Source: a virus (lineage: Duplodnaviria > Caudoviricetes). Taken from it: a DNA stretch of 64,000 bases. The translations under genes were made by a program, and so were the position numbers. Below, in pieces: positions 5,664-39,997 of the stretch. The notes below the pieces were generated by a model that was not told the DNA's origin, did not search any database, and saw nothing but the letters and a program-made list of their open reading frames with translations. The stretch spans positions 32,001-96,000 of the IMG/VR virus record IMGVR_UViG_3300033073_000738, one strand, 5' to 3'. Positions within the stretch are counted from its first letter, which is position 1. Each line of letters starts with the position of its first letter.

Positions 5664-8600
5664 TTATCTATTCAGTGATTCAAATCCTTTCACCGCATCT
5701 ATTGGGTGGAACGTCTTACCTGTATATCCAGAGAATGAGTTCACAATCTCTGCCAGTAATTTGGAATCACCTTCATCTTTCAAACCACTCTGGTCAACGT
5801 CTTTCTGGTAGTACAATTGTTTCTGATAGTCAAAACCTGGTAGTACATCAAGTGTATGAGATATCATCAAATTACCCATCTTGATGTATGAATTAGCTTC
5901 ACTCAAAAGCATAGACGGGTTGGACCAAATACGTTTTAATTCTTGAATATTGAATCCAGGTAGGAACTGTTCAGTCTCAGATTTCACTTTCAACAAAACA
6001 TAAAGAGCACTCTGACTACCCCATGATTTCTTACGCAGCTTTTTGAAACGATCCGGGTCATCTGGGTCGTAACCAAGTGCAAGATGATAGAGCAGTATAA
6101 TTGATAACACAAATCCGGCATCTGCAAGAGACTTCTTAATAGCTCTCTTTTCGTGTTCAGAATAGTTGTTCCAGTTAGCCACTATATTCAGCTTCATCTT
6201 GGCAATGTCTTTTACAAATGTCCTAAAGAACGTCAGATAAAAGCCTTCTTCTACAGACATGGATTCGTAGTTAACACGACGAACCCCGAGACGATTCAAA
6301 CCAAGAGGTATGAAGTACTTTCTGAAGAAGAACATCATACGACCAATACTGGTCTTCTCAGCATATGTCTTGTCTATCTTTGCATAAGAACCGTTTATCT
6401 TCTTCTGCATGGCATGCAACTTAGCCACATAGTCGCTGAACTGCTGAGATCCAAATTCAAAAACATCTTTGAATTGGTCTTTTACAACAAGCTTACCCTG
6501 CTTGTCCAGCTCCATGACGTCTAACAAATTCGTGTCTAATGCGTCAAATTCTTTCAGAGCTTCCAGACGTTTGTTTGTAATCTCTTCTAAAGACATGTTT
6601 TCACGGTCCCCCAGTTTCTCATTGACAAAGGTTTCTTTATCAATCATCTTACCCTGATACACTTTGATGTTTTTAAGAAAAGAGATGAATGCACTAGACT
6701 GAATCTCCCACTCACCAAATATCTTACCTGAGAATATACCCAGCTGAAAAGGATTCTTGACCTTAGAGAAGTTAGTGTTATGACCATACTCATTCTCAAA
6801 CTCACCCTGTATAGGGTCGAACACTTCAAACACTTGACCCCAGAAAGAACGATTACCCAGTTTACCATAGTCTGCCATCATATCATTTACTACAGATCCA
6901 TGTTTATCGTCCCCTTTAAAGAGCATTGCTTTATCTCTTGTAAACTGTGACATGTTAAAATACTGTCCGCCGGCAGCTTCTACAATGTTTTGTATGTTAC
7001 CAGACATCCAGTTAACCGTCCAGTTAAAAGGTGCTATACCCAGGGTGGTATAACTGGTCAATGCCATAAGCTGTGACACGGTCTTTTGTGTATTAACGCC
7101 TAATACGTCAAACCCTTTAAAATACTCCTCGTTGTACATCACAGAGTTTATAAAGCTCCTGAGCACTTCAAGACGAGTGTTACCCCCTTCGTTGATCTTT
7201 TGTTTAAGTTCTGGCATATACTTCTTAAACACTTTGTTGATCACCATGTTGGACGCCTCACTCTTAGGTTGATTCTGGGTATCTGCCAATATTTCCTCGA
7301 GACCGTTAACGAATGCCAGCTCTTTCTCAAGCTCTTTCTTACGGTTTATAGAAGCGTTATAGTTGAGAAACCCTGACCACACGTTATAAGACGCGTTTTC
7401 AGCCTCACCACGGCGAGAAAATCTCACCGGTACAAACTTAGCTTGATTGTTATCTATGGTCGCCATAAGCTGTAAATCGCTTATAGAAGACTCTGAGGTA
7501 CCTGTCTGGTCAATATCCTGGTCTGTACGGCTGAATTTCCGCCTTATACCCTGTATAATAGACTCAGCTCGGCTATTTACCCCCTGTTTGATATTCTCAC
7601 CCTTGGTCTCAATAGTACGCTCAGTGAGGGTCTTTTCCATAAAGGGTACAGCTAACCCCAATCTCTGGGAAAGTTCGATGTCTTCCTGTGCAGCCAGGGT
7701 GCTTGTGCTGATATATAATAGATTTTCATAATCTACTTTCTCAGCAGCTGTAGCTGTCTTGTTCCTCATCTTGGTTTCCAGATCTACGAAATCTTTCAGC
7801 CTATAAGGATGGTCTACACCATATTGCTTTCTGTAAACATCGTTAGCTTTTGGCTTGAACCTATTGAGAACATCTCTATTCTCGTTGTTCATTAGTTGTA
7901 CCTCCTCCCCTTTCTCGTTGGTATAGCTTTCTTTCATTACCCGTTTACGATACTGTAACCCAGGTTTTCTATCCAGATATTTAGCGTTGGGTTCAAATCT
8001 CTTCCAGGCATATATGGGGCTTTCGCTTTTCTTTACATCTTCGTCATCCTCGTAGAGCTTGAAATACTCAATGTTATGATTCTCTAGGTACCAAGGTGTA
8101 TTGGTAAATTCCTCATACAAGGATGCATCTTCATTTAGCTCATCTACACTTATACCCCTGGCTTCTGCAAACAGCTCCATTTGGTGCTGCATCTCTTCGA
8201 TGTAATACTTACTCTCAGACATTGTACGCATTGTACCAAGTTCGGCGTTGATCTCTTTCAACCTGGCAACTTTCAATGCATAGTCAGGGTCTGATTCAGA
8301 TCTTAGAAGACGTCTCACCTCAGCTTCTTTATGTATACTTGCTATAAGGTATTTGTTATACGGATGACCCAGCTTTTTCTTCATGTTCTCTTTAGCCAGG
8401 GTTTCCTGCTCTTCAGGTGTGTAACCATTGATACTGATGTTGTCACTACTGTCCATGAGAGAAGTACGCTCTTCTTCAAGCTGCTTCATCTTTATCTTCT
8501 TTTCAGAAGACATCAATTGAGCTTTGACTATACCATCTCTGTCCTTATAAGGACGTGTAAGTAGATTCAATTCTCTGTTTACCTCGGCAAGCTTTACAGA

Positions 8601-11600
8601 TTCTGTATTTTGCAATATAGCAGCCTTCTCATCAAGAAGCTCTTGCATACGTTGAAAATACTCATCTTTGATAGAAACCACTGTGTTCAACTCAAGCCAT
8701 TTCTTATACTGCTTGCTATTCTCACCCAGTTCAAGTTTCTTCTTATCATCTATCTTACGGAACATCTCCTCATCAATATAGTCGTCATAAAGCTTCTTAG
8801 AGTTTTCTTCATACTTCTCCAAAGCTTCGGCAATCTTTAGAGCATCCCCGGTCTTCATCTTATTCTTACTGTCCCGTTTTTCTTTTAGAGAGTAATATCT
8901 CTCCCATACTGATTTGATATCCTCTAGGTCAGAAGGAGATATTTCACCAGAAGCCCAGGCTTCTTTAGAATATTGCACCTGTATTTTCCTCAGGTCATCA
9001 AAAATGGCCCCTGTTATCTCACGTATTGTCTTGGTCTCTCCCTGGAAACTAACTGTCTGCTCAAGAGGAGCTGTCAGTTTATAATACTCTTCTGTATACT
9101 GTGACTCAAAATACTTCAGCTCAAAATCCTTCTTGGCTTTCTTAGCTGCTTTGATCTTGTCTTTGTCTTTCTCAGTCTCAGCATCTACCAGATTCTTCTG
9201 CAGAACAGCATAGTCATAATAAAGACGCTCGTCAAACTCACTCTTGAAGAACATCTGCTGCATCTCTTTACCATTATATGGATTGAGTACAGTGGTTATA
9301 TACACCAAACTTTCGTTCATCTTCTTTTGGTCAAGACCTCTGCCATACACTTGAGCACGCTTATTAAACTCAACTGAAGTGTTATCCCTCAGTTCTTTAT
9401 TCATCAAACGAACTCTGTCCAGGGTGGCTTTTAACTTCTTTGCAGCACCTGCTAATATGATATCAGGGTTGGATATTGTAGCTACAAGTTTACCAAAGAA
9501 CCAACCCACATCACCCTTGTCACCTTTTAAGAAATCAGTTATAACTGCTTCACTGGGTAGGTCAGCCATTTCTTGACGCAGTTTCTCCTCGAGTTTTTTG
9601 TCACCCCTTTGTTTGACAGCGACAATCATCTCTTGATACTCCCCTTTAAGATTACCTATAAGGTCATCAGAAAAACTGGTCTGCAACATCTTAGCAATAG
9701 TGGGCTCAATACTTGCAACATAGTCTTTACGAATCGCCTGGATAACCCCTATCAGTTTAGTAAGATGACTTACCACCGGATTATTCTGGTCAGTTGTTTC
9801 CATGTATCCCAGTAGCTCTTCAAACATTGTCTGATAACCAATAAGAAAATCTCTCATCTTACTGAGCTCATTTAACCTTTGACTTGCTGACTTGGTATCT
9901 GTAGGAGTAGTATTACGAAGCTCCTCAAAAGCTTTACTTACAGACTCTATTACAGGCACTGATAGATCCAGAACAGATAGAAAGTTCTTCTGTATCATCT
10001 CCATCTTGGACGCATCGTCGTTTTCCAACATACTTTCGAGTGTGGTCTTCAAGATGTCCTCTTGTACTCTCAGACTATTGGTTCTTGTACGTTGGTCAGT
10101 AATGAGGTCAAGTATCTTTTGTGCGTCCTTGTTCTTGGTAACAAAGTTTCTGAGCTGCTCCAAACGAGCTGTAGATTTTGTAAAAGCTTTCATAAGCTTT
10201 TCTCTGCTCATCTTATTCAGAAACGCCAACCGCTCATCAGGAGTAAGCTCTACTGTTTCACTATTAGCATCTTTATCCAGGTCAAGATTGGGAAACAAAT
10301 GGTTACCCAAACGAGTATCAAACTTAGAAGGAGGCATTTTCTCTACAGCAAACTTGTCAATCATGTTGGTCTTCTCATCCAACATATAGGGTATACCAAT
10401 GATCGCTGTATCACCCACGTTAAACCCGGCTTCCATAAGAAGCTTCTTGTATAAGGTAAGCTGCTGACCCCATTTATCAACCAGTCGACGTTTCTTGTTC
10501 TTGAGTTCATTCAATACACCAGGTTCATTCTTTACCCCGTCTTTTGACAAGAGTCGTATAACACTATGGAACTCCTCCAAAATAGTGTCTTTGTTGTCAG
10601 CTCTCTTTCTTAGATACTTGTTCTTAAAGTCATATATCTCAAGACTACCGTCAGGACGAATACGAATGATGTCAATGATGCCACCCATTTTAGAGTTACC
10701 TACAGCCACCTCATTAAGAAGTATAGACCCGTCGCTACGTAGCTCTTTAAGTACATCAACAATACCGTCTTTACCGAATATCATCTTGTTCAATGTCTTA
10801 CGGTCCATCATATTAAAGACAGCACTCAATATCTTGTTCACCTCTTCACCCATATCGTTGAGGTCAATACCTTGGTCTTTGTTAATCTCTTCAATGATTC
10901 TATGCATCGCTGTACCAAAAAGAGTCTTTCTCTTGTTCTCAGATGCCATAAAGAGAAGGTCAACTATCCGGGTAGAATTGTTGGTCATCTTTAACAACTC
11001 TTCCTTTGTAATAGCCTGGTTACTTATCTTGTCTGTAATCAGATCTACCAATGCACGAGCCACCTTTTTGTTGTCACCTAAGTCACCGGTGCTAAGCATT
11101 GTCAAGTCATCAAAATAGAGATCTTCAAAGCTGTCAAGAATAGATTCAATAACAACCGGGTCTTCTAATTCAGAGGTGAAGTCAGAACCCAAGGAGGCTG
11201 TTACAGAACGCAACAAACTACCTTTAACTGTTTTGGTTGTCTTATTACCCTGGTTATCTGTGATAGTCATGTCAAACTCTTCATCAGATGATGCATCAGC
11301 TTTCACAAGCATGTGCTTGTCTTCATCAAATGCTATGCTCGAGTTGAACTGTAGTATCTTCTGAAGAGTCTCTTTCTGCTTTTCATTCATGTTCTGAGCC
11401 TCATAAAAAGCTTTATCTTCATCAGACATCTGATTGTATATCTCATTACTGTTCAGGTTAAGATTGAGGTTGTCAATCTGCTCACTCATGAACATCTCTT
11501 TGAGAATCTCAATAGGGTCACGTTGTATCTTCTTACCCTTGATCCATTCTAATATCTTCTTTACAAGCTTTGTAATGAAGTTATCTTCCGTCTCACGACC

Positions 11601-12377
11601 CCTGGCAGCAATTTCTTTTGCCAGAGCTTCTTTCTTTATCTTGTCAAACCGGATGTTCCCCTTACTGTCTTTGTAGTTGGGGTTGTTCTTATATTGCTCA
11701 AAGGCTTTCTTATACGTATCAGTGCTTCTTATCTTGTCTAAAGCCTCCATAAGAGCTTCATCGTTCTGAGGCATCATATCAAGAAAGAAGTGTAAAGCTT
11801 CTTCTGGTAGAGCTGTATCTTCCAGACCACTTTGTACCATCACCATTCTTTTTGCAAAGTCTGCTATGGCATTGACACCATACTCTTTGATAACGTTGTC
11901 CTGACTAACTACAGAAACCCCTACTCTTTGTAAGAATCGTTTTGCGTAATCAGTCATTGTTAATGAGTCATTGTTATAGTTGAATACCATTCTGTTCCAG
12001 TTGTCCATCACCTTGTCATCAACTGTTACATAGTCTTGCATGTATTCTAATACAGGATAAGTCTCAGAGAATGCAGACAATTGTTGAGCTATATCCGGTG
12101 TGTCTTTTACCTTGTACCAGGTTTTACCCTTATCACGAATAGGTTCAGGATTAATCAGATCTCTTTCAGCAAGTGTTGCTACAACAGTGTCAGCTGAAAG
12201 CTTAGGAAGAGAATCCAAAGACTTCAGTACACCATTATACTTAAGAAGCTCATTTGCTTTGTTAACTGATGGGACAACTCCATTGTTTCTGAAAAAAGCC
12301 AACATTGCTTTATCTTCACCAATCTCACCAACTAACGATTTCCATTCACTTGATTTCTTGTTAGGACAGATTAACAT
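5664..12377 (-). CDS. Giant virion-ejected protein (2237 aa) with a PD-(D/E)xK nuclease-like domain and degenerate zincin-like motif
   Basis: M.xCPN...WK.L N-terminus typical of crAss RNAP-neighbour proteins; PEEALH; GTAMH...E...IDII...IYDFK...QQLTLY; C-terminal hydrophobic helix; position directly downstream of the RNAP. Confidence 0.85.
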   Translation of the reverse strand: MLICPNKKSSEWKSLVGEIGEDKAMLAFFRNNGVVPSVNKANELLKYNGVLKSLDSLPKLSADTVVATLAERDLINPEPIRDKGKTWYKVKDTPDIAQQLSAFSETYPVLEYMQDYVTVDDKVMDNWNRMVFNYNNDSLTMTDYAKRFLQRVGVSVVSQDNVIKEYGVNAIADFAKRMVMVQSGLEDTALPEEALHFFLDMMPQNDEALMEALDKIRSTDTYKKAFEQYKNNPNYKDSKGNIRFDKIKKEALAKEIAARGRETEDNFITKLVKKILEWIKGKKIQRDPIEILKEMFMSEQIDNLNLNLNSNEIYNQMSDEDKAFYEAQNMNEKQKETLQKILQFNSSIAFDEDKHMLVKADASSDEEFDMTITDNQGNKTTKTVKGSLLRSVTASLGSDFTSELEDPVVIESILDSFEDLYFDDLTMLSTGDLGDNKKVARALVDLITDKISNQAITKEELLKMTNNSTRIVDLLFMASENKRKTLFGTAMHRIIEEINKDQGIDLNDMGEEVNKILSAVFNMMDRKTLNKMIFGKDGIVDVLKELRSDGSILLNEVAVGNSKMGGIIDIIRIRPDGSLEIYDFKNKYLRKRADNKDTILEEFHSVIRLLSKDGVKNEPGVLNELKNKKRRLVDKWGQQLTLYKKLLMEAGFNVGDTAIIGIPYMLDEKTNMIDKFAVEKMPPSKFDTRLGNHLFPNLDLDKDANSETVELTPDERLAFLNKMSREKLMKAFTKSTARLEQLRNFVTKNKDAQKILDLITDQRTRTNSLRVQEDILKTTLESMLENDDASKMEMIQKNFLSVLDLSVPVIESVSKAFEELRNTTPTDTKSASQRLNELSKMRDFLIGYQTMFEELLGYMETTDQNNPVVSHLTKLIGVIQAIRKDYVASIEPTIAKMLQTSFSDDLIGNLKGEYQEMIVAVKQRGDKKLEEKLRQEMADLPSEAVITDFLKGDKGDVGWFFGKLVATISNPDIILAGAAKKLKATLDRVRLMNKELRDNTSVEFNKRAQVYGRGLDQKKMNESLVYITTVLNPYNGKEMQQMFFKSEFDERLYYDYAVLQKNLVDAETEKDKDKIKAAKKAKKDFELKYFESQYTEEYYKLTAPLEQTVSFQGETKTIREITGAIFDDLRKIQVQYSKEAWASGEISPSDLEDIKSVWERYYSLKEKRDSKNKMKTGDALKIAEALEKYEENSKKLYDDYIDEEMFRKIDDKKKLELGENSKQYKKWLELNTVVSIKDEYFQRMQELLDEKAAILQNTESVKLAEVNRELNLLTRPYKDRDGIVKAQLMSSEKKIKMKQLEEERTSLMDSSDNISINGYTPEEQETLAKENMKKKLGHPYNKYLIASIHKEAEVRRLLRSESDPDYALKVARLKEINAELGTMRTMSESKYYIEEMQHQMELFAEARGISVDELNEDASLYEEFTNTPWYLENHNIEYFKLYEDDEDVKKSESPIYAWKRFEPNAKYLDRKPGLQYRKRVMKESYTNEKGEEVQLMNNENRDVLNRFKPKANDVYRKQYGVDHPYRLKDFVDLETKMRNKTATAAEKVDYENLLYISTSTLAAQEDIELSQRLGLAVPFMEKTLTERTIETKGENIKQGVNSRAESIIQGIRRKFSRTDQDIDQTGTSESSISDLQLMATIDNNQAKFVPVRFSRRGEAENASYNVWSGFLNYNASINRKKELEKELAFVNGLEEILADTQNQPKSEASNMVINKVFKKYMPELKQKINEGGNTRLEVLRSFINSVMYNEEYFKGFDVLGVNTQKTVSQLMALTSYTTLGIAPFNWTVNWMSGNIQNIVEAAGGQYFNMSQFTRDKAMLFKGDDKHGSVVNDMMADYGKLGNRSFWGQVFEVFDPIQGEFENEYGHNTNFSKVKNPFQLGIFSGKIFGEWEIQSSAFISFLKNIKVYQGKMIDKETFVNEKLGDRENMSLEEITNKRLEALKEFDALDTNLLDVMELDKQGKLVVKDQFKDVFEFGSQQFSDYVAKLHAMQKKINGSYAKIDKTYAEKTSIGRMMFFFRKYFIPLGLNRLGVRRVNYESMSVEEGFYLTFFRTFVKDIAKMKLNIVANWNNYSEHEKRAIKKSLADAGFVLSIILLYHLALGYDPDDPDRFKKLRKKSWGSQSALYVLLKVKSETEQFLPGFNIQELKRIWSNPSMLLSEANSYIKMGNLMISHTLDVLPGFDYQKQLYYQKDVDQSGLKDEGDSKLLAEIVNSFSGYTGKTFHPIDAVKGFESLNR

Positions 12378-12385
12378 GTTCAGTA

Positions 12386-15300
12386 TTATTTAATTTTACC
12401 AAGACAACTCATACGATTAAAAAACTCTTCAGCTGATTCATTCTCAAGCTGCTCCTTCTTATAAAGGTCCGCTATCTGTTCTGCAGACATGCTGAAACTC
12501 AATGTTGAATCCACCATCAATTTGGTGAAAGCTCCCACAACATCAGTTGTAGTGGCTCTATCAGCACTTGCTGTTGCTTTACCAAAGTTGTTAAAGATGT
12601 TTCTACTTTTAGCTGCAGCATCTGCCAAGTCATTCATCATATTTCCACTATGACCCTTGACCCATTTTATAGATACAGAACCACCGCTGGCTTCGATCTT
12701 CTTTATAAGATTCTCAGCAGCATTTACAAGAGTTATGATGTAAGCTTCCTTTGCTTTCCAAGGCTTAGGTTCTCTTTGCTGACTTCCTTCACTGTAGTTC
12801 CATAACCCGTTATAGTTTACAGCCCCTTTGTAATCCTGGTTGATTACAATGTGTTCACCCCCTACATTTGCAAAATGGGTAAGTACAGACACCAGGGCCA
12901 TCATTTCCATGGTAGGATTACTAAACTTAGCATCTGGGTGCAGCTCTTTCAATCGTTGCACCTCTTTACTTTCTTCTGTACCAGATAGATCATAAACTTG
13001 ACCATTTGCTTTGAATACAGCACCAAACCCAATCTTACCGGTACCCTTGATGTCAGACCCATCTGAGTAAACTTGCAATGGATTCTCTTTAGTGGAAAGT
13101 TTAGTTGGTGTAACAGATTTATCTGAAGACTCATATTGTTTATAAATAACTAACTCTCTACCAGCATCTTTCTTAGACTCTTCAATCCATCCAATTAATG
13201 CAGTGTAACCATTAGCAATCATGGCTTTTGTAACAGCATCATTACTTTCTTTTATCGAAGAGAATACCTTATTCTCAAGAGCTGCTCGTTTAATTAACAT
13301 AAACTTACTTTGTCCTTCTTCTGTTGTAGCATCTAATGTTGTTGCAGGCTCATAAGATACTTCTACCGTTGTCACTTTACCAGAACTTCCTATTTCTTGA
13401 AATGGTCTATCTAACGCATAATAAGTACCACCACCTCTTTGTGCATAATTAACCTTAGAAGAAAATGTATCCGATGTTCTAAAGGCTTTAACTGTAACAG
13501 TTGCTTGCTGTTTAATAGTAGTTGTAGCAGGTTTGACAACATCAGATTTACTCCATCTTGAATAACCATCAAGTCTTTCTTCTGTGTAACCCTTTAGCTT
13601 AAGATAGGATGCAATAAGTTGATCAGAAAGATTACCCTTAGCGTATTGATTACCCACTCTAAACGATGCACCGGCTGCAATAGCTTTTTCCAAAAGTGAT
13701 TTGTATTTACTACTAAGAGTTTCTTTGATCTGAGCTTCTGTAACACCTCTAAACAACCCACTACCAGATACCATCACTACATCAGATGCGGTATAGTTTC
13801 CAGTATTTGCTTTACTACCCCAGGCTTGACGATATTTATCTGTAGAACTAATGGAAGCATTACCAGACTTATATCCTATAAACTGAGTAGATTCCTGAGC
13901 CATCTGAATGTCTTTACCTGCATTACCATACATATCAGTAGGTTTGACACCTGCCTGTAGTAGCGGGTTTTCTTTAACAGTATCTTGTTGTTGAGATGAC
14001 ATCAACCCAGCTTTTTGTAAAGCTTCTTTTATAGCCGGCATGTTAGATCTAGTGGCATCAGTTCTTACTGTGGCTTGTCTACCAAGACTAACATCCTCAG
14101 AAGGCAATACAAGTTTGATATTATCTGTAGCAGAAATAGTTTTAATCAGAATAGGTAGTATCTCCTTTACAGACCCTTCACCATGACCAAGACCAGCTAG
14201 TGGCAGAAGTATTGTCTTGTCTTTATTCTCTCTTGCATATACAATGATCTTACGCAGACCGCTTTTCATCAACTCAACATTGTTACCTGTCACTGATTCA
14301 GAATAAGCCCCTTTACCAGGTTTTCTGGTAGAAGGTTCATTACCCTTAACTGGTAGTTGTATCACATTGTCTTTGATCTTGAATTCACCGTCTCCACGTG
14401 TAATCAACCCTTTAGATGCAGCAGCTTGTGCTAACCCAGCACCATGTACACCTTCTAGGTTTGTAGTGATTACAGGAATACCTTGCATTTGGAATATATC
14501 TCCCTCTACAACTTTCTCAGATTGATTTTGAATTACCTCAAACTCAATAGCTGCAGCACCAGGTAAGAATTTATCAATCACATTAACATCTTCTGCTCTC
14601 CAGCCTTCTTTGTGCCAAGTACCTTTCCACCCAGGTGAACCTTTGGGATGTATAGCAGTGACACGTGCATACACTTCTTTCTCTACTTTATAATCAGAAG
14701 TTGTACTAATGTGCCTTACAATATCTCCCACTTTTACATTATATTTATCCATCTCTGTATTTGACCTTGTTGTACGAGTACGGAAACCATGTATTATCAT
14801 ATCAATACTTGTAGGATTGGGCCCCAATGCATCAATAACTTTTTGATTAGCCGTAACTAAACTACCGAAACTCATAACCCCACTTACCTTGTTCTGTGGA
14901 ATATCAGCAACACTTGCTATAGATTTCTGAGCAACTGGTGTAGGCAATAACCCTTTCTCTTGTTTAGATGCCCACTCTAAAGGTATACTAGAGTACCACT
15001 TACCTTTTGTTGCTATTTCACGAGTGAGGGTTTGTTTAGAACCTTTACCAAAAAACGTGGGATTATTACTGCCAAATTTAGAATAAAAATCTCTATAGAC
15101 TGTTTCTTTATACAATCTTTTCTGTTCAGAATCTTTTCTTTCATCTACACTTTTCTGAAACTCATCTACAGCATACCCATACAGCTTATTTATAAGACCG
15201 ACAGGTACAGCTGAAATGTAGCTGTATCTGTTTGAGTTCAATCCGCTCTGGAAAATAGAATACAAAACAAGATCCCTGAAGAACTTTCTTACTTGTATAT

Positions 15301-18300
15301 TGTCTTCATCTGATTGTTCAAGGTTTGCCAGGTTTTCTAATTGAGCAATCACACTCTCTTTCTCTATGGTATTACTGCTGTTCTCAAGAAATCGCCAAGT
15401 GATTACACGAGAGTTTCCTTCACCTCTTTCAAAAAACAGGTTTCTAACAATTGGATATTGTTCTTCAAGAGATGAATACCAGTCTTTTTTCTTGATGGCA
15501 TTCCAATCATCCACCATCTTATTAGACTGAATCAATTCTAACAAATACTCATCAAGTGATTTGTCAGTCTGCCAGTTTTCTTTGAAATACTGTTTCCCTT
15601 CTTCACTACGATCTATGAAGTTTTGCAATACATAATTGACAAAGTCATTCTTAGCTGTGCGAGCAAACTTCAAAAGGTCATCGTTTGTTTTCAGTTTTCT
15701 ATCTTCTGCAAAACCCATCATCAGATAACCACCTTCCTTAAGCAAAAAGTTATTTAACTGAATGTCATTTCTAACAGGGAACAGAGTATTGAGACCTAAT
15801 AGTATCTCTTTTGCTACATTCAAAGGCGTAATTATACTATTAGTAGCAATGTTCTTGACAGTTTCACGAGTCAATACAGACGAAGGTTCGTTAAGATCTA
15901 TAGCTTTTTTATACAATTCTCCTCTTGCAAATACATCAAAACCGGAAGCATAGGGATTGGTATCCCATTTCAAAGCTGTTTGAATGTTAGTTAAAGAATC
16001 TGTGTTATCCTTCAACCCAAGCATCTCTATCAAATATATAAGTTGCTCAAGCTTCATGCTTTCAGAAAGAGTGAATAAGTCTGTACCATCTGGCATCACT
16101 GTTTCTTTCAACTTTTCCTTGCTGAACAACTCATCAGTATTTAGAACATACTCACCTTTAAGTCTATTAATCTTATCGTTAATTACACTTCTTATGGTCT
16201 TTCTGCTTACGCTTTTTGCAACTGCATCTCTTTTTATGACACCCATTTCTTTCATAAGTTCTGCAAGAGCCATTCTCCTAGCTGATACTTTGCTATCTTT
16301 TGCACTATCCAAGAACTTGTTATCATACAAGCTGATCAGTTTGGTATACCTTCTGATGATGGGCTGATTCACAAAGTTCAGTATCTTATCACTTGATATC
16401 CCCATATACTTCATGAAAAACATCAAAGGAGAAAGCTCTGTCACCACATTCACTGCAAACACATAGTCATCTTTAGCCACGTCAACAAACGCATTGATAA
16501 ACTCACTGAAGAACTCACTTTTAAGATTACCATCTTCATCATAAATGCTTGACAAAGACACCTCTTCTATTTTACCCCCTACGGTCTTTTTTATAAACTT
16601 GTTTGAAAACAATGTATTAACCTGTTTGGGGTTCAACTTAGCATCAGAATACTGGAACAATACGTTGAATGTATTAGCAAGAGCTGCAATACCCAGGTCG
16701 TTCTTACCTGTTAATAGACTCAGGAACTTCTTAATGTTCTTTTCTCTATCTAATATCTCTGAGTGTTTGTAGTCAGTCTTTTGTCTTTTAGTACCGTACA
16801 GCTTGTAATAGATTTCGTCTACTATAGGCATTATCTCGTAGTTGGTACTGGGGGTGATAAGCTCAATATAGTTAGCCGGGTGCAGTATCACCTCGCTCAT
16901 TGTATTGATCAGCCTGTTTTGTACAACACTTTTGATGTTGTTGTACTTACTTAAATCAGTGAGGTCACTCTTTTTATAGGGCATATCCATTACTTCCCCA
17001 TCGTAACTTAAAGATGGGTAGAGTATGAACATCTTGTCAATGTCAAAGTCAGAACCGGATTTGATAACAACCTCAGAAGGCATTACAATAGCATCACCAA
17101 ACTGAGCTGGTAGAAACTCTGCTATTTCCATTACGTCCTGGAAGTTCTTACCCTGTGTAGGAATACGATATGCCACCATTTGAACACTCTTTCTATTCTT
17201 GTTCATCCATTCTTCGTCTTTGAGCATCTCGTTCATCCTATGAATAGACTCTATCTTCTTACCATCTTTATGTTTCATCTGTAAAAGAGGTAGCCAGTTT
17301 CTTGTCATACCCACCTTCACCTGCATAGGAGTAACTACTTGCTTTCCATTCACTTCTTTTAGGTCGTAATACTTAAGCTCTGTATTACCAAATGTCTCAA
17401 GAGCACGATCACTGAGTTTTTTAGAATAGTTTATACGCTCCATACCTGTAGTGGCTACTTGTATGAGCATTGTTCCATTTGCCTTATATCTTACCAGGTT
17501 GTTGTTTATAGCAGATATGATGATGCCCTCTATCACCTGAGCTTGCACTGTAGCATCCAGGGGTACAGTGAACTTACCTGTTGCTGCATCATAGTTAAGG
17601 GCCTTGATAACGTTGCTGTCTTGGTTCTTCTTTTTGACTTCTGACAGAAAGTAGTCAACCATCTTCTTGAGGTCGTCCACTTTCAGTTTACCTTCTTCTT
17701 GGCTGAAACGAATCCCAAGCTTATTAAATAGAGTTGCTTTCTCTATTTCTACAAGCTCATCTATGTACCTTTTGTAATCTTGATACAGACCTTTGAAATC
17801 TGGATGTTCCAGATTCATCATGATCAGCTTCCTGATCTGTGAACCAAATACAGAAGTGTCGTGAATCTCTGAGTCTATTGTTACCTGCTCTTTCAAATGG
17901 TTGAAGAACAAAGTGTTTGCACTTTTGAAATCCAAACTCTTGATTAGTTCTTTTCTTTCTTTATCGGTGAGCCCATTGATCTCATTTCTCTCCATACTAA
18001 GAAAAGGAGTAATAGTACGTTCACCGGGATTATTACCATCAAAGCTTTTGTAATAATCATCCATGTCTTTAGGCGTCTCTACCTTGCTACCGCTTTCAAA
18101 CTTTACATACCCATATCCACCAAACTCCATTCTCTTAGCTAGATGCTCATCTGCTGTTCCTTTAATCAATGTAGGAATCAAAGGTTGTATAGAGAACTTA
18201 TCAAATACCGGCACCAGGGTCGTATAACTACCGTTATCTACTGTTCTATTATACTCCATAGGGCCAGCATACTGGAACTTCTTAGGAGGAAAATACACCT

Positions 18301-21286
18301 CAGCTAATGGATCATATCCAACCGCGTCACGTTTCTTTATAAGTTCGCTACGTAACTTGGGGTCTTTTTCTGCGTCAGCAAGTTCATCATAGTGGGCAAA
18401 GTCAACGATCTTCTTATATGTCTCCTCCTGTTCATTCGACCATTGACCAGTAAGAATGGATATATTACGATAGAAGTCAAATGTACATTTACCCTGACCA
18501 TCAGCTTCTGTACCCTTGTATTCATTCTCGATTACAGCTTTAATCTTCTCGTCATAAAGCTTGATCATTTCAGGGCTGAGCAAACCTTTTTCTTTCTTTA
18601 GCTTCTCAATGTTTGCTATAATCTTATCCTTATAAGATGATACAAAGTTGACATCTTTTAACACAGCACTTCTAAATCCAAAATCTACAGACTGACGAGC
18701 TAATGCCTCAGTGTATTCGTTTTTGTTCAAATAACCTTTCTTATACAAACGTTCTATCAAATTCCTACCGGATAGATTTGTGTTTGCACCATACCCTACA
18801 GAGTTTGAGTAGTTATTGAAATCCTCTATCAGGTTCTTATCAAGGGAGGCAAAAATACCTGTAGCTGAATCTTTGGGAGATCGTTTATGAAAGTCTTTGA
18901 AATAGATGGAGTCACCAAAGAATACTTTCATCTGGTCAATATCCATTAAGAAAGTATTAGCCAGGTAGTCATGTATAACGTTGGTCCATGGGTCTTTACC
19001 CATTTGCAGCTCGTCTTTACCAAAATTGAATACTTTAAATCTCTTATTGCTCCACAGTTTCTCAGCAGGTTTCAATCTTTCATAGAACCTCTGAGCATAG
19101 TTGTTCATGTAATCTGTAATCTCATTCTTTACATTGTTATGCAGCTCACTGTTTGGAACCAATGCTACTTCATCAACACTCTTTGCTTTACTTAATATTG
19201 CATCCAGTTTGTCCCTGATATCAGAATCTTTGATGATGTCTTCAAACAAACCCCAGGTATTCAAACTATTTACAGAAGCTCTAGTGAGGTCTTTGAAAAA
19301 CCCTTTCTTAGCCAGGTAACGCATTTGCATAGTGTCCTGAAGATGATCCACCACCTTAGATAGAAATACTTCATTACTAAATATTTTAGCAGTGCTGTTC
19401 TTAAAAAAAGACACTATAGGTCTCTTCTGAGGTAGCTCAAGATTCTTATCAAAATAGTAATCCATCTTTACACCCAGGTCAGTAGACTTATCTCCCAGAC
19501 GTAATACCGAGTTATAGCCCTGCATACGAAATGAGTTGATGTCCTGGAGGAGTTTATCAATGTCATTCAGATCTGTACTACTTGCACCATCTGTATCTTC
19601 CCCTTCTTTCTTAAGCTGTAGACCACCTGTATTGCTTATCTCAAGACGATTGTATTCTCCTTCGGTAGCAGACCATTCTAGTATATTAGTGTCTACATTC
19701 TTCTTTATACGACGACGCTTGCCGTAGTTTTTACTACTGGGGTCAAAAAAGAAAAGAGAATTCATGAACATACTGTTACGTATGGATGGGTTTCTCTCTG
19801 GGTCTAAGAAAGCAAGCGATGGTTCATTCTTTAATATATCTTCTAGAGTGGGATACTTCTCAAAATCATTAAGAGCATTGTTGATAACAGTGAAGTTATT
19901 GTGCAACTGTAACGCGTGCATCCTGTTTCCCTCTGAGGTGATGACGTTACGGTCCATGTTATAACTCTTGTTGTATTTCAACTCCAATGCTATAAGATCT
20001 TTGATAAGGTTGTTTTGACCGTCGCTAATCTTCTTTGATACCCATTTACCTTTTTCTTGAGTTCTGGTATAAAGATCCTGGGTAACAGCTTTAAGGGGGT
20101 TTGTTATAAACTTATCATCTTGTATATTCCTTACAACTGCAAGAAAATGATTGTATATATACTGAAAAGCAGTTGTATAACCCTGACCTTTAGGTCCTAG
20201 AGCTCTACTCGACATCAGATGCTTTTCTGTCTGTGGAGAAAACTCAAATCCCAGACCTTTTAAAAATGACAATTGAGTTGCTTTTAAAGACGGCCCATCT
20301 ATATTCTTGAATATATCTTCCAGTCTTTCTATAGCATTCTTATTAATCTCCCATGCACCATTGTTATTGTCAGCAAGATTCACCTCAGTACCATCTGGTA
20401 GAGTGATGGGCATACCCACCCTATTGAAGTTAGCTTCAATCTTCATTTGATAACCAGAGGTCTTACCGGTAGCTGCCATGAAGTTCTTCAACAACCCATT
20501 GTCTTCTAAGCTCATTTGATATATAGGCATAAAAGCCTTGGCAAATGAGTTCCTGAAATTGATTCTGAACTGCGTCTCTTCTTTTGTATGGTCTTTCTTG
20601 TGTTTCAGCTTGTCTATAATCTTGCTGTACTGAGGTATGTCATTTACATACTTTTCCATCTTAGTAATGATCTGGTCAAGACTTGTAGAGTTCTCTACAT
20701 GAGTCATCAGATTCCTTACAAAGTTGGAATAGTTTACAGAAGATGTAAATCCATATTCATCAAACACCTCGTCATCTTGTAGGCTCCTGATGAAAATCTC
20801 AACAGATTTGTCTACATCATCCAATGGATCTATCTCATTAGCTGACACATCAAAGACCATTCTTTGTATGGCTTTATCGTCATCACCTATTTGAGTGAGG
20901 TCTACCAACCCGTCTTCGCCGGTCACCAATTTATTACGAAGCTCAAATACCGTAGAGAACTTAATGAAGTTAGCTTGAACACTTTTCCATGAAGCTTGTA
21001 TCTCAAGAAGATTTGTGACAATCTTCTTAAACTCTTCTGCATTCTCAGTGTCACCAGATGCTTCAAGACTTGCAACTTTAGCTGCATAGCTTTGAATGTA
21101 CTGAGGCAACACTTTGTCTCTTACTGAATTCAATAAGTTTTCAATAACACTCTTCTTATTCTTTCCTACAAGGTCAAATACAGAAACGCCTTCTTGTTCC
21201 ATAGCACGAAACATGAAGTATTCCAATTTGGAAACAACCTTGACCATTTTGTCTTTCGTAATCTCAAGTGAACAGTTAGCAGACAT
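12386..21286 (-). CDS. Virion RNA polymerase (double-psi beta-barrel, phi14:2 gp66-like) with C-terminal multidomain extension ending in RNase HI
   Basis: SGSDFDIDK (DFDID at 17036-17050), YRIPTQG and ADGQG motifs. ATG at 21286 preferred over TTG at 21295. Confidence 0.93.
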   Translation of the reverse strand: MSANCSLEITKDKMVKVVSKLEYFMFRAMEQEGVSVFDLVGKNKKSVIENLLNSVRDKVLPQYIQSYAAKVASLEASGDTENAEEFKKIVTNLLEIQASWKSVQANFIKFSTVFELRNKLVTGEDGLVDLTQIGDDDKAIQRMVFDVSANEIDPLDDVDKSVEIFIRSLQDDEVFDEYGFTSSVNYSNFVRNLMTHVENSTSLDQIITKMEKYVNDIPQYSKIIDKLKHKKDHTKEETQFRINFRNSFAKAFMPIYQMSLEDNGLLKNFMAATGKTSGYQMKIEANFNRVGMPITLPDGTEVNLADNNNGAWEINKNAIERLEDIFKNIDGPSLKATQLSFLKGLGFEFSPQTEKHLMSSRALGPKGQGYTTAFQYIYNHFLAVVRNIQDDKFITNPLKAVTQDLYTRTQEKGKWVSKKISDGQNNLIKDLIALELKYNKSYNMDRNVITSEGNRMHALQLHNNFTVINNALNDFEKYPTLEDILKNEPSLAFLDPERNPSIRNSMFMNSLFFFDPSSKNYGKRRRIKKNVDTNILEWSATEGEYNRLEISNTGGLQLKKEGEDTDGASSTDLNDIDKLLQDINSFRMQGYNSVLRLGDKSTDLGVKMDYYFDKNLELPQKRPIVSFFKNSTAKIFSNEVFLSKVVDHLQDTMQMRYLAKKGFFKDLTRASVNSLNTWGLFEDIIKDSDIRDKLDAILSKAKSVDEVALVPNSELHNNVKNEITDYMNNYAQRFYERLKPAEKLWSNKRFKVFNFGKDELQMGKDPWTNVIHDYLANTFLMDIDQMKVFFGDSIYFKDFHKRSPKDSATGIFASLDKNLIEDFNNYSNSVGYGANTNLSGRNLIERLYKKGYLNKNEYTEALARQSVDFGFRSAVLKDVNFVSSYKDKIIANIEKLKKEKGLLSPEMIKLYDEKIKAVIENEYKGTEADGQGKCTFDFYRNISILTGQWSNEQEETYKKIVDFAHYDELADAEKDPKLRSELIKKRDAVGYDPLAEVYFPPKKFQYAGPMEYNRTVDNGSYTTLVPVFDKFSIQPLIPTLIKGTADEHLAKRMEFGGYGYVKFESGSKVETPKDMDDYYKSFDGNNPGERTITPFLSMERNEINGLTDKERKELIKSLDFKSANTLFFNHLKEQVTIDSEIHDTSVFGSQIRKLIMMNLEHPDFKGLYQDYKRYIDELVEIEKATLFNKLGIRFSQEEGKLKVDDLKKMVDYFLSEVKKKNQDSNVIKALNYDAATGKFTVPLDATVQAQVIEGIIISAINNNLVRYKANGTMLIQVATTGMERINYSKKLSDRALETFGNTELKYYDLKEVNGKQVVTPMQVKVGMTRNWLPLLQMKHKDGKKIESIHRMNEMLKDEEWMNKNRKSVQMVAYRIPTQGKNFQDVMEIAEFLPAQFGDAIVMPSEVVIKSGSDFDIDKMFILYPSLSYDGEVMDMPYKKSDLTDLSKYNNIKSVVQNRLINTMSEVILHPANYIELITPSTNYEIMPIVDEIYYKLYGTKRQKTDYKHSEILDREKNIKKFLSLLTGKNDLGIAALANTFNVLFQYSDAKLNPKQVNTLFSNKFIKKTVGGKIEEVSLSSIYDEDGNLKSEFFSEFINAFVDVAKDDYVFAVNVVTELSPLMFFMKYMGISSDKILNFVNQPIIRRYTKLISLYDNKFLDSAKDSKVSARRMALAELMKEMGVIKRDAVAKSVSRKTIRSVINDKINRLKGEYVLNTDELFSKEKLKETVMPDGTDLFTLSESMKLEQLIYLIEMLGLKDNTDSLTNIQTALKWDTNPYASGFDVFARGELYKKAIDLNEPSSVLTRETVKNIATNSIITPLNVAKEILLGLNTLFPVRNDIQLNNFLLKEGGYLMMGFAEDRKLKTNDDLLKFARTAKNDFVNYVLQNFIDRSEEGKQYFKENWQTDKSLDEYLLELIQSNKMVDDWNAIKKKDWYSSLEEQYPIVRNLFFERGEGNSRVITWRFLENSSNTIEKESVIAQLENLANLEQSDEDNIQVRKFFRDLVLYSIFQSGLNSNRYSYISAVPVGLINKLYGYAVDEFQKSVDERKDSEQKRLYKETVYRDFYSKFGSNNPTFFGKGSKQTLTREIATKGKWYSSIPLEWASKQEKGLLPTPVAQKSIASVADIPQNKVSGVMSFGSLVTANQKVIDALGPNPTSIDMIIHGFRTRTTRSNTEMDKYNVKVGDIVRHISTTSDYKVEKEVYARVTAIHPKGSPGWKGTWHKEGWRAEDVNVIDKFLPGAAAIEFEVIQNQSEKVVEGDIFQMQGIPVITTNLEGVHGAGLAQAAASKGLITRGDGEFKIKDNVIQLPVKGNEPSTRKPGKGAYSESVTGNNVELMKSGLRKIIVYARENKDKTILLPLAGLGHGEGSVKEILPILIKTISATDNIKLVLPSEDVSLGRQATVRTDATRSNMPAIKEALQKAGLMSSQQQDTVKENPLLQAGVKPTDMYGNAGKDIQMAQESTQFIGYKSGNASISSTDKYRQAWGSKANTGNYTASDVVMVSGSGLFRGVTEAQIKETLSSKYKSLLEKAIAAGASFRVGNQYAKGNLSDQLIASYLKLKGYTEERLDGYSRWSKSDVVKPATTTIKQQATVTVKAFRTSDTFSSKVNYAQRGGGTYYALDRPFQEIGSSGKVTTVEVSYEPATTLDATTEEGQSKFMLIKRAALENKVFSSIKESNDAVTKAMIANGYTALIGWIEESKKDAGRELVIYKQYESSDKSVTPTKLSTKENPLQVYSDGSDIKGTGKIGFGAVFKANGQVYDLSGTEESKEVQRLKELHPDAKFSNPTMEMMALVSVLTHFANVGGEHIVINQDYKGAVNYNGLWNYSEGSQQREPKPWKAKEAYIITLVNAAENLIKKIEASGGSVSIKWVKGHSGNMMNDLADAAAKSRNIFNNFGKATASADRATTTDVVGAFTKLMVDSTLSFSMSAEQIADLYKKEQLENESAEEFFNRMSCLGKIK

Positions 21287-21288
21287 TA

Positions 21289-39900: not shown

Positions 39901-39997
39901 AACCATCAGCACGACGTATCATTTGACCGCCATTGGCGTACATGTTCAGAATACTTTGCTCTAAAGCATCTCTGAGTATTTTACCATTTGAGCTCAT
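36968..39997 (-). CDS. Virion cargo protein with NlpC/P60- or CHAP-like peptidase, lysozyme-like region and two DUF3597-like repeats
   Basis: GCIGGVCTVL...GDVL...HAQIYLG; GQE...SIGPGQIK; two SIVDY(M/L)NS.G..SD...R...A....GI..Y repeats. Confidence 0.7.
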   Translation of the reverse strand: MSSNGKILRDALEQSILNMYANGGQMIRRADGSYSRRGLWDNVRENKGSGKKPTREMLEQEAKIRASMGYGGMYEYGGIAYPYSLVNDRYFVTGGPTDPEDEKRRALAKKVVEMANKRANSQNWVDIPENVRQAAQNRGEEAFGCIGGVCTVLNEAGAIPTVTWSNTDFAKRAKEFGFPNKGYGVKGFGNLEAGDVLQHLQSLNNQGKRYPSHAQIYLGKNESTGEHEFFDNFSKKKKTYREDELREWLDPKRAPEERQASIYKVNPYHPDLTNFTKDPVVLKALADKENMIQNQTYVDPNYTYKLRDDSPFAGDAPEGMTKFFDFANNQDRVNELVTKLGVPKSVIHDELLNTFGELGQENKWEDRTLAGSGFGAEGVIEKIFKPKSWSIGPGQIKFNSVPEDLKKMFDIKSPKDLYNWDKVLPLMTAINIKNRQWMENQGDELSAKLIGKPGVSADELKGGVGRWTPYMYRGTPKDPIKQLRKEAEKEISKDGKTEEQYNQEINDYIDSQYGDRAKLLDKNSYAGKVFANIDQNLERTRPQADWEEYTPLTKVIVTPGNNRDYSVPQRVATNSQPVVNMPTAVVPQQLEQRQQTRTNRQGNLQTESIVDYMNSRGLASDKRSRAELAQRLGIEDYDYSATKNKELLMKMRQDNLPSNKYGGCLSCGGSIYANGGDTYSGGVWYSNGGMYPQYGVAGPVDQDGYINEVIPSDIPGGGERPLPPELRGIIPNGNMTAAPVKSPGKRGPSSESIVDYLNSVGMKSDFATRKAMAEKTFGIKNYKGTADQNRMLLGLMRNPTYNPNDGNMLRPKAPGKTIDPFLDMMNKTGVGKGKSTQNPQTAKDLNSYQKYVDPNDPYFFAEESDNDFIKLIDSPFTWLRNQGATMMYDPSWANKAMSAAQLIALGLGSRGLFRNTRYEQLPGAKRLPGIPKGLPNSTTPPPPVTPRGFLPEPPPMPTPRGFEIPARGLRSPGYPMFEMGGYSIGEEVNITDPQQLFELQKQGYSFDII

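What the first reader, a model, noticed from the sequence alone, without database searches (positions are those of the whole stretch)
12600..13080. Complete RNase HI domain at the RNAP C-terminus
Seen: VYSDGS, GFGAV, SNPTMEMMAL, INQDY and KWVKGHSGNMMNDLADAAAK give all four acidic residues plus the His loop of RNase HI. Known: the phi14:2 vRNAP transcribes single-stranded or denatured DNA well in vitro, which favours persistent RNA:DNA hybrids. Inference: the tethered RNase H clears R-loops behind the polymerase, matures replication primers, or attacks defence RNA:DNA hybrids such as retrons or CRISPR R-loops.
Basis: partly seen in the sequence, partly recalled or inferred. Interest (0 to 1): 0.75.

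Follow-up and report, generated by a model that had tools for sequence, protein, structure and literature searches.

The report
RNase H cassette on virion polymerase
A freshwater crAss-like phage carries a genuine, well-conserved RNase H enzyme as one of five swappable add-on modules near the end of the RNA polymerase it injects into its host. The module is optional and was acquired from distant relatives, so it looks like an accessory tool, not part of how the polymerase works.

Summary
Residues 2740-2897 of a 2969-aa ORF (window 12386-21295, minus strand) are a type-1 RNase H. Pfam RNase_H scores 42-47 bits against a cut-off of 25.8. The DEDD residues and the His are present. The predicted fold matches RNase HI at Z 14.2. 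The ORF is a crAss-type virion RNA polymerase: it has DFDID and matches phi14:2 gp66 at E 6e-19.

The RNase H is not simply the polymerase's C-terminus. It is the last of five independent modules (A, a macro domain, C, D, RNase H). These lie between the polymerase body and a conserved tail that carries a cysteine.

None of the 119 other listed polymerase relatives carries a Pfam RNase_H, and none of the 56 closest matches this module. Five near-complete related genomes have no RNase H anywhere. Copies 53-80% identical sit at varied positions in more than 50 giant proteins, mostly distant polymerases (core about 21-30% identical), and a few stand alone as genes.

Nine of nine strain variants inside the domain are synonymous, and contigs from three studies bridge the junction.

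Best reading: an active, horizontally acquired, optional payload enzyme that is co-injected with the polymerase. Its hybrid substrate is unknown. This is a new variant of the known polyvalent-protein kind.

The parts
12386..21295 (-). Giant ORF (2969 codons from TTG). The likely true start is the ATG at 21286, giving the 2966-aa form P0003. It is a crAss-type virion RNA polymerase with a C-terminal module array.
   Evidence: PDB 6VR4 (phi14:2 gp66) matches at E 5.9e-19 over residues 1134-1669.
17036..17050 (-). DFDID catalytic metal-binding motif of the polymerase (residues 1416-1420).
   Evidence: It aligns with gp66 1361-DFDID-1365.
14510..14926 (-). Module A (residues about 2124-2262), family unassigned. 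An ASCH/PUA-like look is only a guess from reading the sequence.
   Evidence: It recurs on its own in 76 of the collected proteins. No Pfam, PHROG or PDB assignment.
13976..14530 (-). Module B (residues about 2256-2440): macro-domain fold.
   Evidence: Model pLDDT 79. Foldseek hits VEEV macro, DarG and TARG1 at E about 5e-5. VIA gives Z 11.1 over 144 residues to CHIKV nsP3 macro and Z 10.5 to DarTG 7omu. PHROG 335 'phosphatase' at E 2e-7.
13496..13993 (-). Module C (residues about 2435-2600), family unassigned.
   Evidence: It recurs on its own in 54 of the collected proteins. No assignment.
13118..13528 (-). Module D (residues about 2590-2726), family unassigned.
   Evidence: It recurs on its own in 14 of the collected proteins. 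No assignment.
12605..13078 (-). RNase HI-type domain (residues 2740-2897). Catalytic residues D2745, E2797, D2821, D2892 and His 2882.
   Evidence: Nine of nine strain variants inside it are synonymous.
12389..12604 (-). Conserved C-terminal tail (residues 2898-2969) with Cys 2964 six residues from the end.
   Evidence: It matches the extreme C-termini of 35 of the 57 closest polymerases, whichever modules precede it. 162 of 175 family proteins have a Cys in their last 10 residues.
21289..30525 (-). Upstream 3078-aa companion ORF. Its only cysteine is its last residue.
   Evidence: No Pfam family.
5664..12377 (-). Downstream 2237-aa companion ORF. Its only cysteine is residue 4.
39994..45516 (-). 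Crassvirus muzzle protein. It places the block in the virion and cargo gene region of a crAss-like phage.
   Evidence: Pfam PF25731 at E 1.2e-25.

Best explanation
The domain is a catalytically competent type-1 RNase H. It was acquired horizontally as a self-contained cassette. It is the last of five interchangeable payload modules, strung on flexible linkers between the body of a crAss-type virion RNA polymerase and its conserved cysteine-bearing tail. This polymerase family is packaged in the capsid and ejected with the DNA. That has been shown for phi14:2 gp66 and is inferred here. If so, the RNase H reaches the host cytoplasm at the start of infection, next to the entering genome. There it would hydrolyse the RNA strand of RNA:DNA hybrids. 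The benefit is conditional, depending on host or defence, and is not a fixed part of transcription or replication. The most economical reading, together with the neighbouring macro domain and the AlkB, NADAR and ADP-ribosyltransferase cassettes of relatives, is a toolkit that keeps the incoming template usable. The hybrids removed could be dead-end products of the polymerase or RNA-guided or reverse-transcriptase-made hybrids from the host. Shown here: domain identity, fold, conserved catalytic residues, purifying selection, cassette mobility and dispensability. Inferred: packaging, activity, the substrate in vivo and the benefit.
For: Identity and fold. Catalytic residues are kept in 74-76 of 76 members. 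All 9 natural variants inside the domain are synonymous, against 7 synonymous and 8 non-synonymous in modules A-D. The host protein is a gp66-type vRNAP in a crAss cargo block. Each of modules A-D matches its own separate set of other proteins (427 hits in all). The modules combine in many orders, and the A-B-C-D-RNase H array occurs only here among about 326 proteins. Module B has a macro fold close to DarG and TARG1. Relatives carry AlkB, ART-PolyVal, NADAR, a kinase, a helicase and others in the same region. Accessory status: none of the other 119 listed core relatives has a Pfam RNase_H, none of the 56 closest matches the module, and 0 of 5 related near-complete genomes has PF00075 anywhere. 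Horizontal origin: the RNase H is 72-80% identical to modules in 4000-5200-aa giants. Their cores are at most about 24% identical or undetectable by BLAST. In the tree it nests among them. It also rides on a giant with a tail-lysozyme domain and no detected polymerase core. It also occurs as a free-standing gene in other phages. The fusion is not an assembly artefact: contigs from three studies bridge the D/RNase H junction, and one runs through the tail into the next gene.
Against: No experiment shows that this protein is packaged, that the C-terminal array stays attached, or that the domain is active. The substrate in vivo is unknown. Co-occurrence with conflict-type domains is not corrected for shared ancestry. 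The domain is the only RNase H in the genome, and no FEN-type nuclease was found, so a replication role cannot be excluded for this particular phage. Virion polymerases that read single-stranded DNA do leave RNA:DNA hybrids; this is shown for the unrelated N4 enzyme (PMC4496689). A jumbo-phage RNase H supports transcription, probably by resolving R-loops (PMC13648698). A transcription-coupled role is therefore plausible.
Confidence: 0.55

Rival explanations
1. Built-in transcription partner. The tethered RNase H works in cis behind the two-barrel polymerase. It removes the RNA:DNA hybrids that this enzyme leaves on single-stranded or unwound templates, so that the template can be reused.
For: [quoted passage not shown] N4 vRNAP forms RNA:DNA hybrids on single-stranded templates and needs SSB to recycle the template. 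Goslar Rhc depletion gives a transcription defect consistent with R-loops. 42 of 55 giant RNase H carriers contain the polymerase core in the same chain, and 3 more show weak polymerase similarity. A free-standing relative lies two genes upstream of a T7-type RNA polymerase gene.
Against: No phi14:2 or reference crAss record matches the module, and no closer relative does either. The position relative to the core varies, with 7 copies on the N-terminal side. The module also occurs on giants without a detected polymerase core. Degrading a hybridised transcript destroys the message, so this could only be a rescue of dead-end products.
Confidence: 0.2
2. Dedicated counter-defence nuclease. The injected RNase H destroys the RNA in host immune RNA:DNA hybrids. 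Candidates are guide-RNA/target-DNA duplexes of CRISPR or Argonaute systems, and template/cDNA hybrids of retrons or defence reverse transcriptases.
For: Delivery at the start of infection suits this role. The macro domain next in the array resembles DarG and TARG1, which remove ADP-ribose. NADAR accompanies the RNase H in 12 of 56 carriers, against 2 of 120 in the general polymerase list. The patchy, horizontally moving distribution is typical of counter-defence genes.
Against: There is no direct evidence. No injected anti-defence RNase H turned up in the literature searched. Hybrids inside Cas or Argonaute complexes are largely shielded. The co-occurrence counts are not phylogenetically independent.
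Confidence: 0.15
3. Replication enzyme. The domain removes or matures RNA primers made by the phage primase or by the virion polymerase.
For: It is the only RNase H in the 121-kb genome, and no FEN-type 5'-3' exonuclease was found. A Toprim primase and a DNA polymerase are encoded. Free-standing relatives lie in replication regions of other phages.
Against: Five related near-complete genomes lack both RNase H and FEN, so the lineage replicates without a phage-encoded enzyme. The gene sits in the virion and cargo block, so only a few injected copies would be present during replication.
Confidence: 0.08
4. Inactive or purely structural relic, or an assembly chimera.
For: None found.
Against: All catalytic residues are kept. 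Nine of nine variants are synonymous. Independent contigs cross the junctions without indels or breaks.
Confidence: 0.02

Closest known systems
Cellulophaga phage phi14:2 gp66, crAss-type virion RNA polymerase (PDB 6VR4)
   Same: Homologous polymerase body with a DFDID motif (E 5.9e-19). Same kind of gene block with giant companion genes.
   Different: gp66 has 2180 residues and no RNase H or other C-terminal cassettes. This protein adds about 780 residues of modules between the body and the tail. Core identity to deposited crAss-like phages is below 30%.
Cellular type-1 RNase H (E. coli RNase HI, S. tokodaii RNase HI 2ehg, human RNase H1 catalytic domain 2qkb)
   Same: Fold (Z 13-14.2), the DEDD residues and His, and a segment aligning with the basic protrusion.
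   Different: About 20% identity. It has an extra helix between strand 3 and helix A and a longer, Trp-rich handle. It is embedded in a 2969-aa virion protein instead of being a free 155-aa enzyme.
Polyvalent proteins of phages and conjugative elements (Iyer et al. 2017, PMC5512222), including N4-like virion RNAPs fused to ART, zincin peptidase, lysozyme or PBECR domains
   Same: Several unrelated enzymatic domains in one polypeptide that is delivered with the DNA. Domains are shuffled combinatorially among relatives.
   Different: That paper has no occurrence of RNase H, AlkB or crAss, and its polymerases are the unrelated N4 single-subunit type. No zincin peptidase was detected in this ORF.
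Goslar Rhc, the RNase H-clamp of nucleus-forming jumbo phages (PMC13648698)
   Same: A phage-encoded RNase H fused to another module, with a reported role in transcription that fits R-loop resolution.
   Different: Rhc is an essential subunit of the DNA polymerase complex. It is not described there as a virion protein and is fused to a clamp-like domain. Here the RNase H is an optional cassette on a virion polymerase.
Retroviral reverse transcriptase-RNase H
   Same: A polymerase and a type-1 RNase H in one chain. The HIV RNase H domain matches the model at Z about 13.
   Different: In retroviruses the RNase H is an obligatory, fixed-geometry partner that degrades the RNA template. Here the polymerase makes RNA from DNA, the modules are about 620 residues apart on flexible linkers, and the pairing is optional.

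Membership tests
Type-1 RNase H (RNase HI, Pfam PF00075) | Profile match above the curated threshold | tested here: met
   41.8 bits on the whole protein and 47 bits on the piece, against a cut-off of 25.8.
Type-1 RNase H (RNase HI, Pfam PF00075) | RNase H fold (mixed five-stranded sheet flanked by helices) | tested here: met
   Predicted model only, pLDDT 91-97 over the domain. Z 14.2, rmsd 2.7 A over 133 residues to 2ehg. All top Foldseek hits are RNase HI.
Type-1 RNase H (RNase HI, Pfam PF00075) | DEDD carboxylates and the loop histidine (E. coli D10, E48, D70, D134, H124) | tested here: met
   D2745, E2797, D2821, D2892 and H2882. They are invariant or nearly so in 76 family members.
Type-1 RNase H (RNase HI, Pfam PF00075) | Basic protrusion (handle) that distinguishes the HI type from the retroviral type | tested here: met
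   Sequence level only. Residues about 2843-2860 align with E. coli 87-101. Trp and Lys positions in this stretch are conserved in the family.
Type-1 RNase H (RNase HI, Pfam PF00075) | Hydrolysis of RNA only in RNA:DNA hybrids | not testable with these tools
   Needs an enzyme assay.
crAss-type two-barrel virion RNA polymerase (phi14:2 gp66 family) | Sequence homology to gp66, and a DFDxD motif with Ile or Val at the fourth position | tested here: met
   E 5.9e-19 to 6VR4. DFDID at residues 1416-1420.
crAss-type two-barrel virion RNA polymerase (phi14:2 gp66 family) | Location in the virion/cargo gene block of a crAss-like genome, flanked by giant companion genes | tested here: met
   Muzzle protein PF25731 lies upstream, with 3078-aa and 2237-aa neighbours. 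All 104 matching phage records fit crAss-like phages by organism name or host.
crAss-type two-barrel virion RNA polymerase (phi14:2 gp66 family) | Packaged in the virion, ejected, and transcribing early genes | not testable with these tools
   Shown only for phi14:2.
Polyvalent proteins (Iyer et al. 2017) | Two or more unrelated catalytic or effector domains in one phage polypeptide, recombined in different sets among relatives | tested here: met
   Polymerase, macro domain, RNase H and three unassigned modules. Shuffling is shown.
Polyvalent proteins (Iyer et al. 2017) | Zincin-like metallopeptidase domain proposed to process the chain | tested here: inconclusive
   No peptidase family was found by Pfam or PHROGs in this ORF. 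About 1100 N-terminal residues remain unassigned.
Macro domain (module B) | Macro fold | tested here: met
   Z 11.1 over 144 residues. Foldseek probability 1.0 to VEEV and CHIKV macro domains, DarG and TARG1.
Macro domain (module B) | ADP-ribose binding or hydrolysis | not tested
   Pfam Macro models do not match. The binding-site residues were not mapped.

The most novel reading that the evidence does not exclude
The RNase H may be the first example of an RNase H that a phage injects as a weapon or shield. Delivered with the virion polymerase, it would cut the RNA of host immune RNA:DNA hybrids (guide-RNA/target duplexes, or retron or defence-RT hybrids) on the entering genome. It would work alongside a DarG-like macro domain as a template-protection toolkit for a polymerase that reads single-stranded DNA.
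Probability: 0.15. Interest if true: 0.75.

Novelty: new variant of a known kind. Interest (0 to 1): 0.45.

Why it matters
Virion RNA polymerases of crAss-like phages are the first phage proteins to act on the entering genome. This case shows that their C-terminal region is a slot for interchangeable enzymes, here including an RNase H under clear purifying selection. That gives a concrete, testable list of activities the phage needs in the first moments of infection. If the RNase H clears the polymerase's own hybrids, it bears on how two-barrel polymerases that prefer single-stranded templates release their products. If it targets host hybrids, it would be a new class of injected counter-defence enzyme. 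The finding also extends the polyvalent-protein concept from N4-type to crAss-type polymerases, with a domain type (RNase H) not listed in the founding paper.

Tried and rejected
- **Joint alignment of modules A-D.** One alignment for a single fold failed twice, because MAFFT stacked the short homologues on one another (A1, A4). Only module B and the RNase H with its tail were folded. Modules A, C and D stay unassigned.
- **Module assignment by profiles.** Pfam and PHROGs on the pieces and on ten divergent homologues gave nothing for A, C or D. A PDB profile search with the module B alignment gave no hit. The ESM Atlas gave no usable hit for module C.
- **Similar DNA in GenBank phages.** Megablast of the region found nothing.
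- **Shared linker motif.** I tested whether a short motif (KENPL) marks all module junctions. It sits at the N-terminal edge of module C and of the RNase H only. It is barely enriched in the giants (48 observed, 30 expected in shuffles), so I dropped it as a general linker.
- **Base composition.** There is no anomaly over the cassettes, so no compositional trace of recent transfer.
- **Helicase co-occurrence.** Helicase cassettes occur in about 5% of proteins both with and without the RNase H, which is uninformative.
- **Expression.** No RNA holder is listed for this stretch, so nothing can be said about expression.
- **Literature.** Searches combining crAss-like phages, virion RNA polymerase and RNase H returned no paper.
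- **Earlier scan notes.** The scan holds no notes for this genome.
- **IPI_T4 hit.** The weak Pfam hit to IPI_T4 (E 0.13) overlaps the first strands of the RNase H, and I treated it as spurious.
Full report
**The observation**

The finding lies on the minus strand, inside one uninterrupted ORF at window 12386-21295 (2969 codons). The database copy starts at the ATG three codons further in and has 2966 residues.

All five quoted motifs are in this frame at 12608-13072, which is residues 2742-2896. The evidence that this is an RNase H is as follows.

- Pfam RNase_H matches residues 2740-2897 at 41.8 bits on the whole protein and 47 bits on the piece alone. The cut-off is 25.8.
- PHROG 531 'RNase H' agrees.
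- Sequence matches to E. coli RNase HI are weak but cover the full length.
- In an alignment with 19 relatives, D2745 is nearly invariant, and E2797, D2821, H2882 and D2892 are invariant.
- Over 76 family members these five residues are kept in 74-76.
- An AlphaFold model of residues 2725-2969 has pLDDT 91-97 across the domain.
- Foldseek ranks RNase HI structures first (E 4.5e-8).
- VIA gives Z 14.2 (rmsd 2.7 A, 133 residues) to S. tokodaii RNase HI, and Z 13.4 to human RNase H1 bound to a hybrid.

The 'non-RNase H fold' refutation is ruled out as far as a predicted model can rule it out.

**The host protein**

The ORF matches the solved phi14:2 gp66 virion polymerase (6VR4) at E 5.9e-19 over residues 1134-1669, including DFDID at 1416-1420.

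A crassvirus muzzle protein (PF25731) lies upstream. Giant ORFs of 3078 and 2237 residues flank the gene. All 104 matching phage records fit crAss-like phages by organism name or host, at under 30% identity.

The genome is a 121,014-bp IMG/VR record, estimated 93% complete. Near-identical contigs occur in riverine and other aquatic metagenomes.

**Where the RNase H really sits**

It is not simply the end of the polymerase. The shortest close relatives (2147-2158 residues, about the size of gp66) stop soon after the segment that corresponds to residues 1700-2120 here.

An exhaustive HMMER search with residues 2120-2735 found 427 proteins. Their matches fall into four separate blocks:

- module A, about 2124-2262
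- module B, about 2256-2440
- module C, about 2435-2600
- module D, about 2590-2726

Then come the RNase H (2740-2897) and a 72-residue tail.

Module B folds as a macro domain. Foldseek hits VEEV macro, DarG and TARG1 at E about 5e-5. VIA gives Z 11.1. Modules A, C and D could not be assigned.

In the roughly 326 proteins collected, the modules occur singly and in many orders: A-C, C-A, A-D, B-C, B-RNase H, C-RNase H. The array A-B-C-D-RNase H is found only here.

Compared with relatives of architecture A-C-tail (P0049, P0010), this protein has two extra insertions: B, and D plus the RNase H. The tail is of the protein's own lineage.

**Distribution of the RNase H module**

- *Polymerase relatives.* Of the 120 best polymerase-core relatives, only the window's own protein carries PF00075. 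The 56 closest (32-68% core identity) have no match to the module. In the same region many carry AlkB or an ADP-ribosyltransferase.
- *Related genomes.* Five related genomes that are complete or nearly so, three of them with terminal repeats, have no RNase H anywhere and no FEN-type nuclease.
- *GenBank phages.* No record in the collection, phi14:2 included, matches the module, apart from a 25% match in Staphylococcus phage Twort.
- *Other carriers.* Modules 53-80% identical occur in more than 50 giant proteins of 2000-5200 residues.
- *Link to the polymerase.* Of 55 such proteins, 42 contain the polymerase catalytic region in the same chain. Three more show weak polymerase similarity. Where BLAST detects their cores at all, they are mostly only 21-30% identical to this one.
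- *Position.* The module is within 100 residues of the C-terminus in 27 of 56 carriers and in the N-terminal half in 12.
- *Non-polymerase carriers.* At least one carrier has a tail-lysozyme domain and no detected polymerase core.
- *Free-standing genes.* True stand-alone genes exist in other phages. One lies two genes from a T7-type polymerase and near a DNA polymerase.
- *Tree.* A quick maximum-likelihood tree puts the window's module among the C-side modules of the distant 4000-5200-residue giants. The tree needs several switches between the fused and free states.

The module is therefore mobile, optional and recently acquired in this lineage.

**Is the fusion real and maintained?**

Contigs from three studies lie on the region at 95-100% identity with no indels or breaks. 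X2 record 2 spans 12313-13156, which covers the junction with module D, the whole RNase H, the tail, the stop codon and the start of the next gene. X4 record 17 also bridges the D/RNase H junction. X3 record 11 ends about 27 bases past it, short of the tool's 31-letter bridging rule.

Of the 24 strain differences, all 9 inside the RNase H are synonymous third-position changes, one of them in the E2797 codon. Modules A-D show 7 synonymous and 8 non-synonymous changes. The contigs have low depth, but sequencing errors would not favour third positions. This argues for purifying selection on an active enzyme.

**Mechanism**

*Shown:* domain identity, predicted fold, kept catalytic residues, selection, cassette behaviour and dispensability.

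*Inferred from the family:* the protein is packaged and ejected with the DNA, as shown for gp66. If so, the RNase H is present from the first moment next to the entering genome.

My best reading, at about 0.55, is an accessory payload enzyme that removes RNA from RNA:DNA hybrids on or near that genome. Its benefit would depend on the host. It fits with the neighbouring macro domain, and with the AlkB and NADAR cassettes of relatives, as a set of nucleic-acid-cleaning activities.

It has real precedents. N4 vRNAP leaves hybrids and needs SSB to recycle its template (PMC4496689). Goslar Rhc supports transcription (PMC13648698). But the distribution of the module does not fit an integral role, so I give it about 0.2.

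A dedicated counter-defence role gets about 0.15.

Primer processing gets about 0.08. In its favour, this is the genome's only RNase H and no FEN was found. Against it, relatives replicate with neither enzyme, and the gene lies in the virion block.

**Comparison and novelty**

Polyvalent proteins, including N4-type virion polymerases fused to effector domains, are a described class. The founding paper has no occurrence of RNase H, AlkB or crAss.

Full-text searches combining crAss-like phages, virion polymerase and RNase H returned nothing. Yutin et al. 2021 speak only of multidomain proteins and never use the term RNase H.

Earlier notes of this scan, on other genomes, had already seen swappable enzyme cassettes on crAss-type polymerases and terminal cysteines. 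My results agree with them and add RNase H as a cassette type.

The verdict is a new variant of a known kind, of moderate interest.

Noticed in passing
window 12404-12406 and 21272-21274; neighbours 21292-21294 and 12366-12368: Terminal-cysteine pattern. The polymerase family is almost free of cysteine (frequency 0.0009). Yet 120 of 175 proteins have a Cys in the first 10 residues and 162 of 175 in the last 10, where 0.9% is expected. In this window the upstream 3078-aa ORF has a single Cys, its last residue. The polymerase has Cys at position 5 (from the Met) and at position -6. The downstream 2237-aa ORF has a single Cys at residue 4. This suggests a head-to-tail disulfide chain in gene order. 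Earlier scan notes on other genomes report the same rule.
   Followed up: partly
window 13976-14530 (-): Module B of the array is a macro domain closest in fold to alphavirus macro domains, DarG and TARG1. No Pfam Macro model detects it.
   Followed up: yes
window 14510-14926, 13496-13993, 13118-13528 (-): Modules A, C and D each form a widespread, independently moving family: 76, 54 and 14 of the collected proteins. None has a Pfam, PHROG or PDB assignment.
   Followed up: partly
P0138 and P0152 (relatives, not in the window): Two RNase H-bearing relatives start with M-DIDH, inside the DFDID catalytic motif. Their polymerase genes therefore seem to be split or interrupted exactly at the active site.
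   Followed up: no
window 13946-14002 and 13061-13117 (-): Module C and the RNase H both begin with the same short peptide, K-E-N-P-L. The same edge is conserved in free-standing RNase H relatives. It is not a general linker.
   Followed up: partly
window 36968-39997 (-): A 1009-aa ORF in the cargo block has a region at residues about 734-805 that matches L-alanyl-D-glutamate peptidase and endolysin PHROGs. It may be a virion-borne cell-wall hydrolase.
   Followed up: no
window 48055-49341 (-): A DNA-repair-exonuclease-like gene (PHROG 704, E 8e-46) lies among the structural genes.
   Followed up: no
window 12300-15000: Near-identical strains occur in riverine and other aquatic metagenomes from at least three studies, so the habitat is freshwater or aquatic.
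   Followed up: partly
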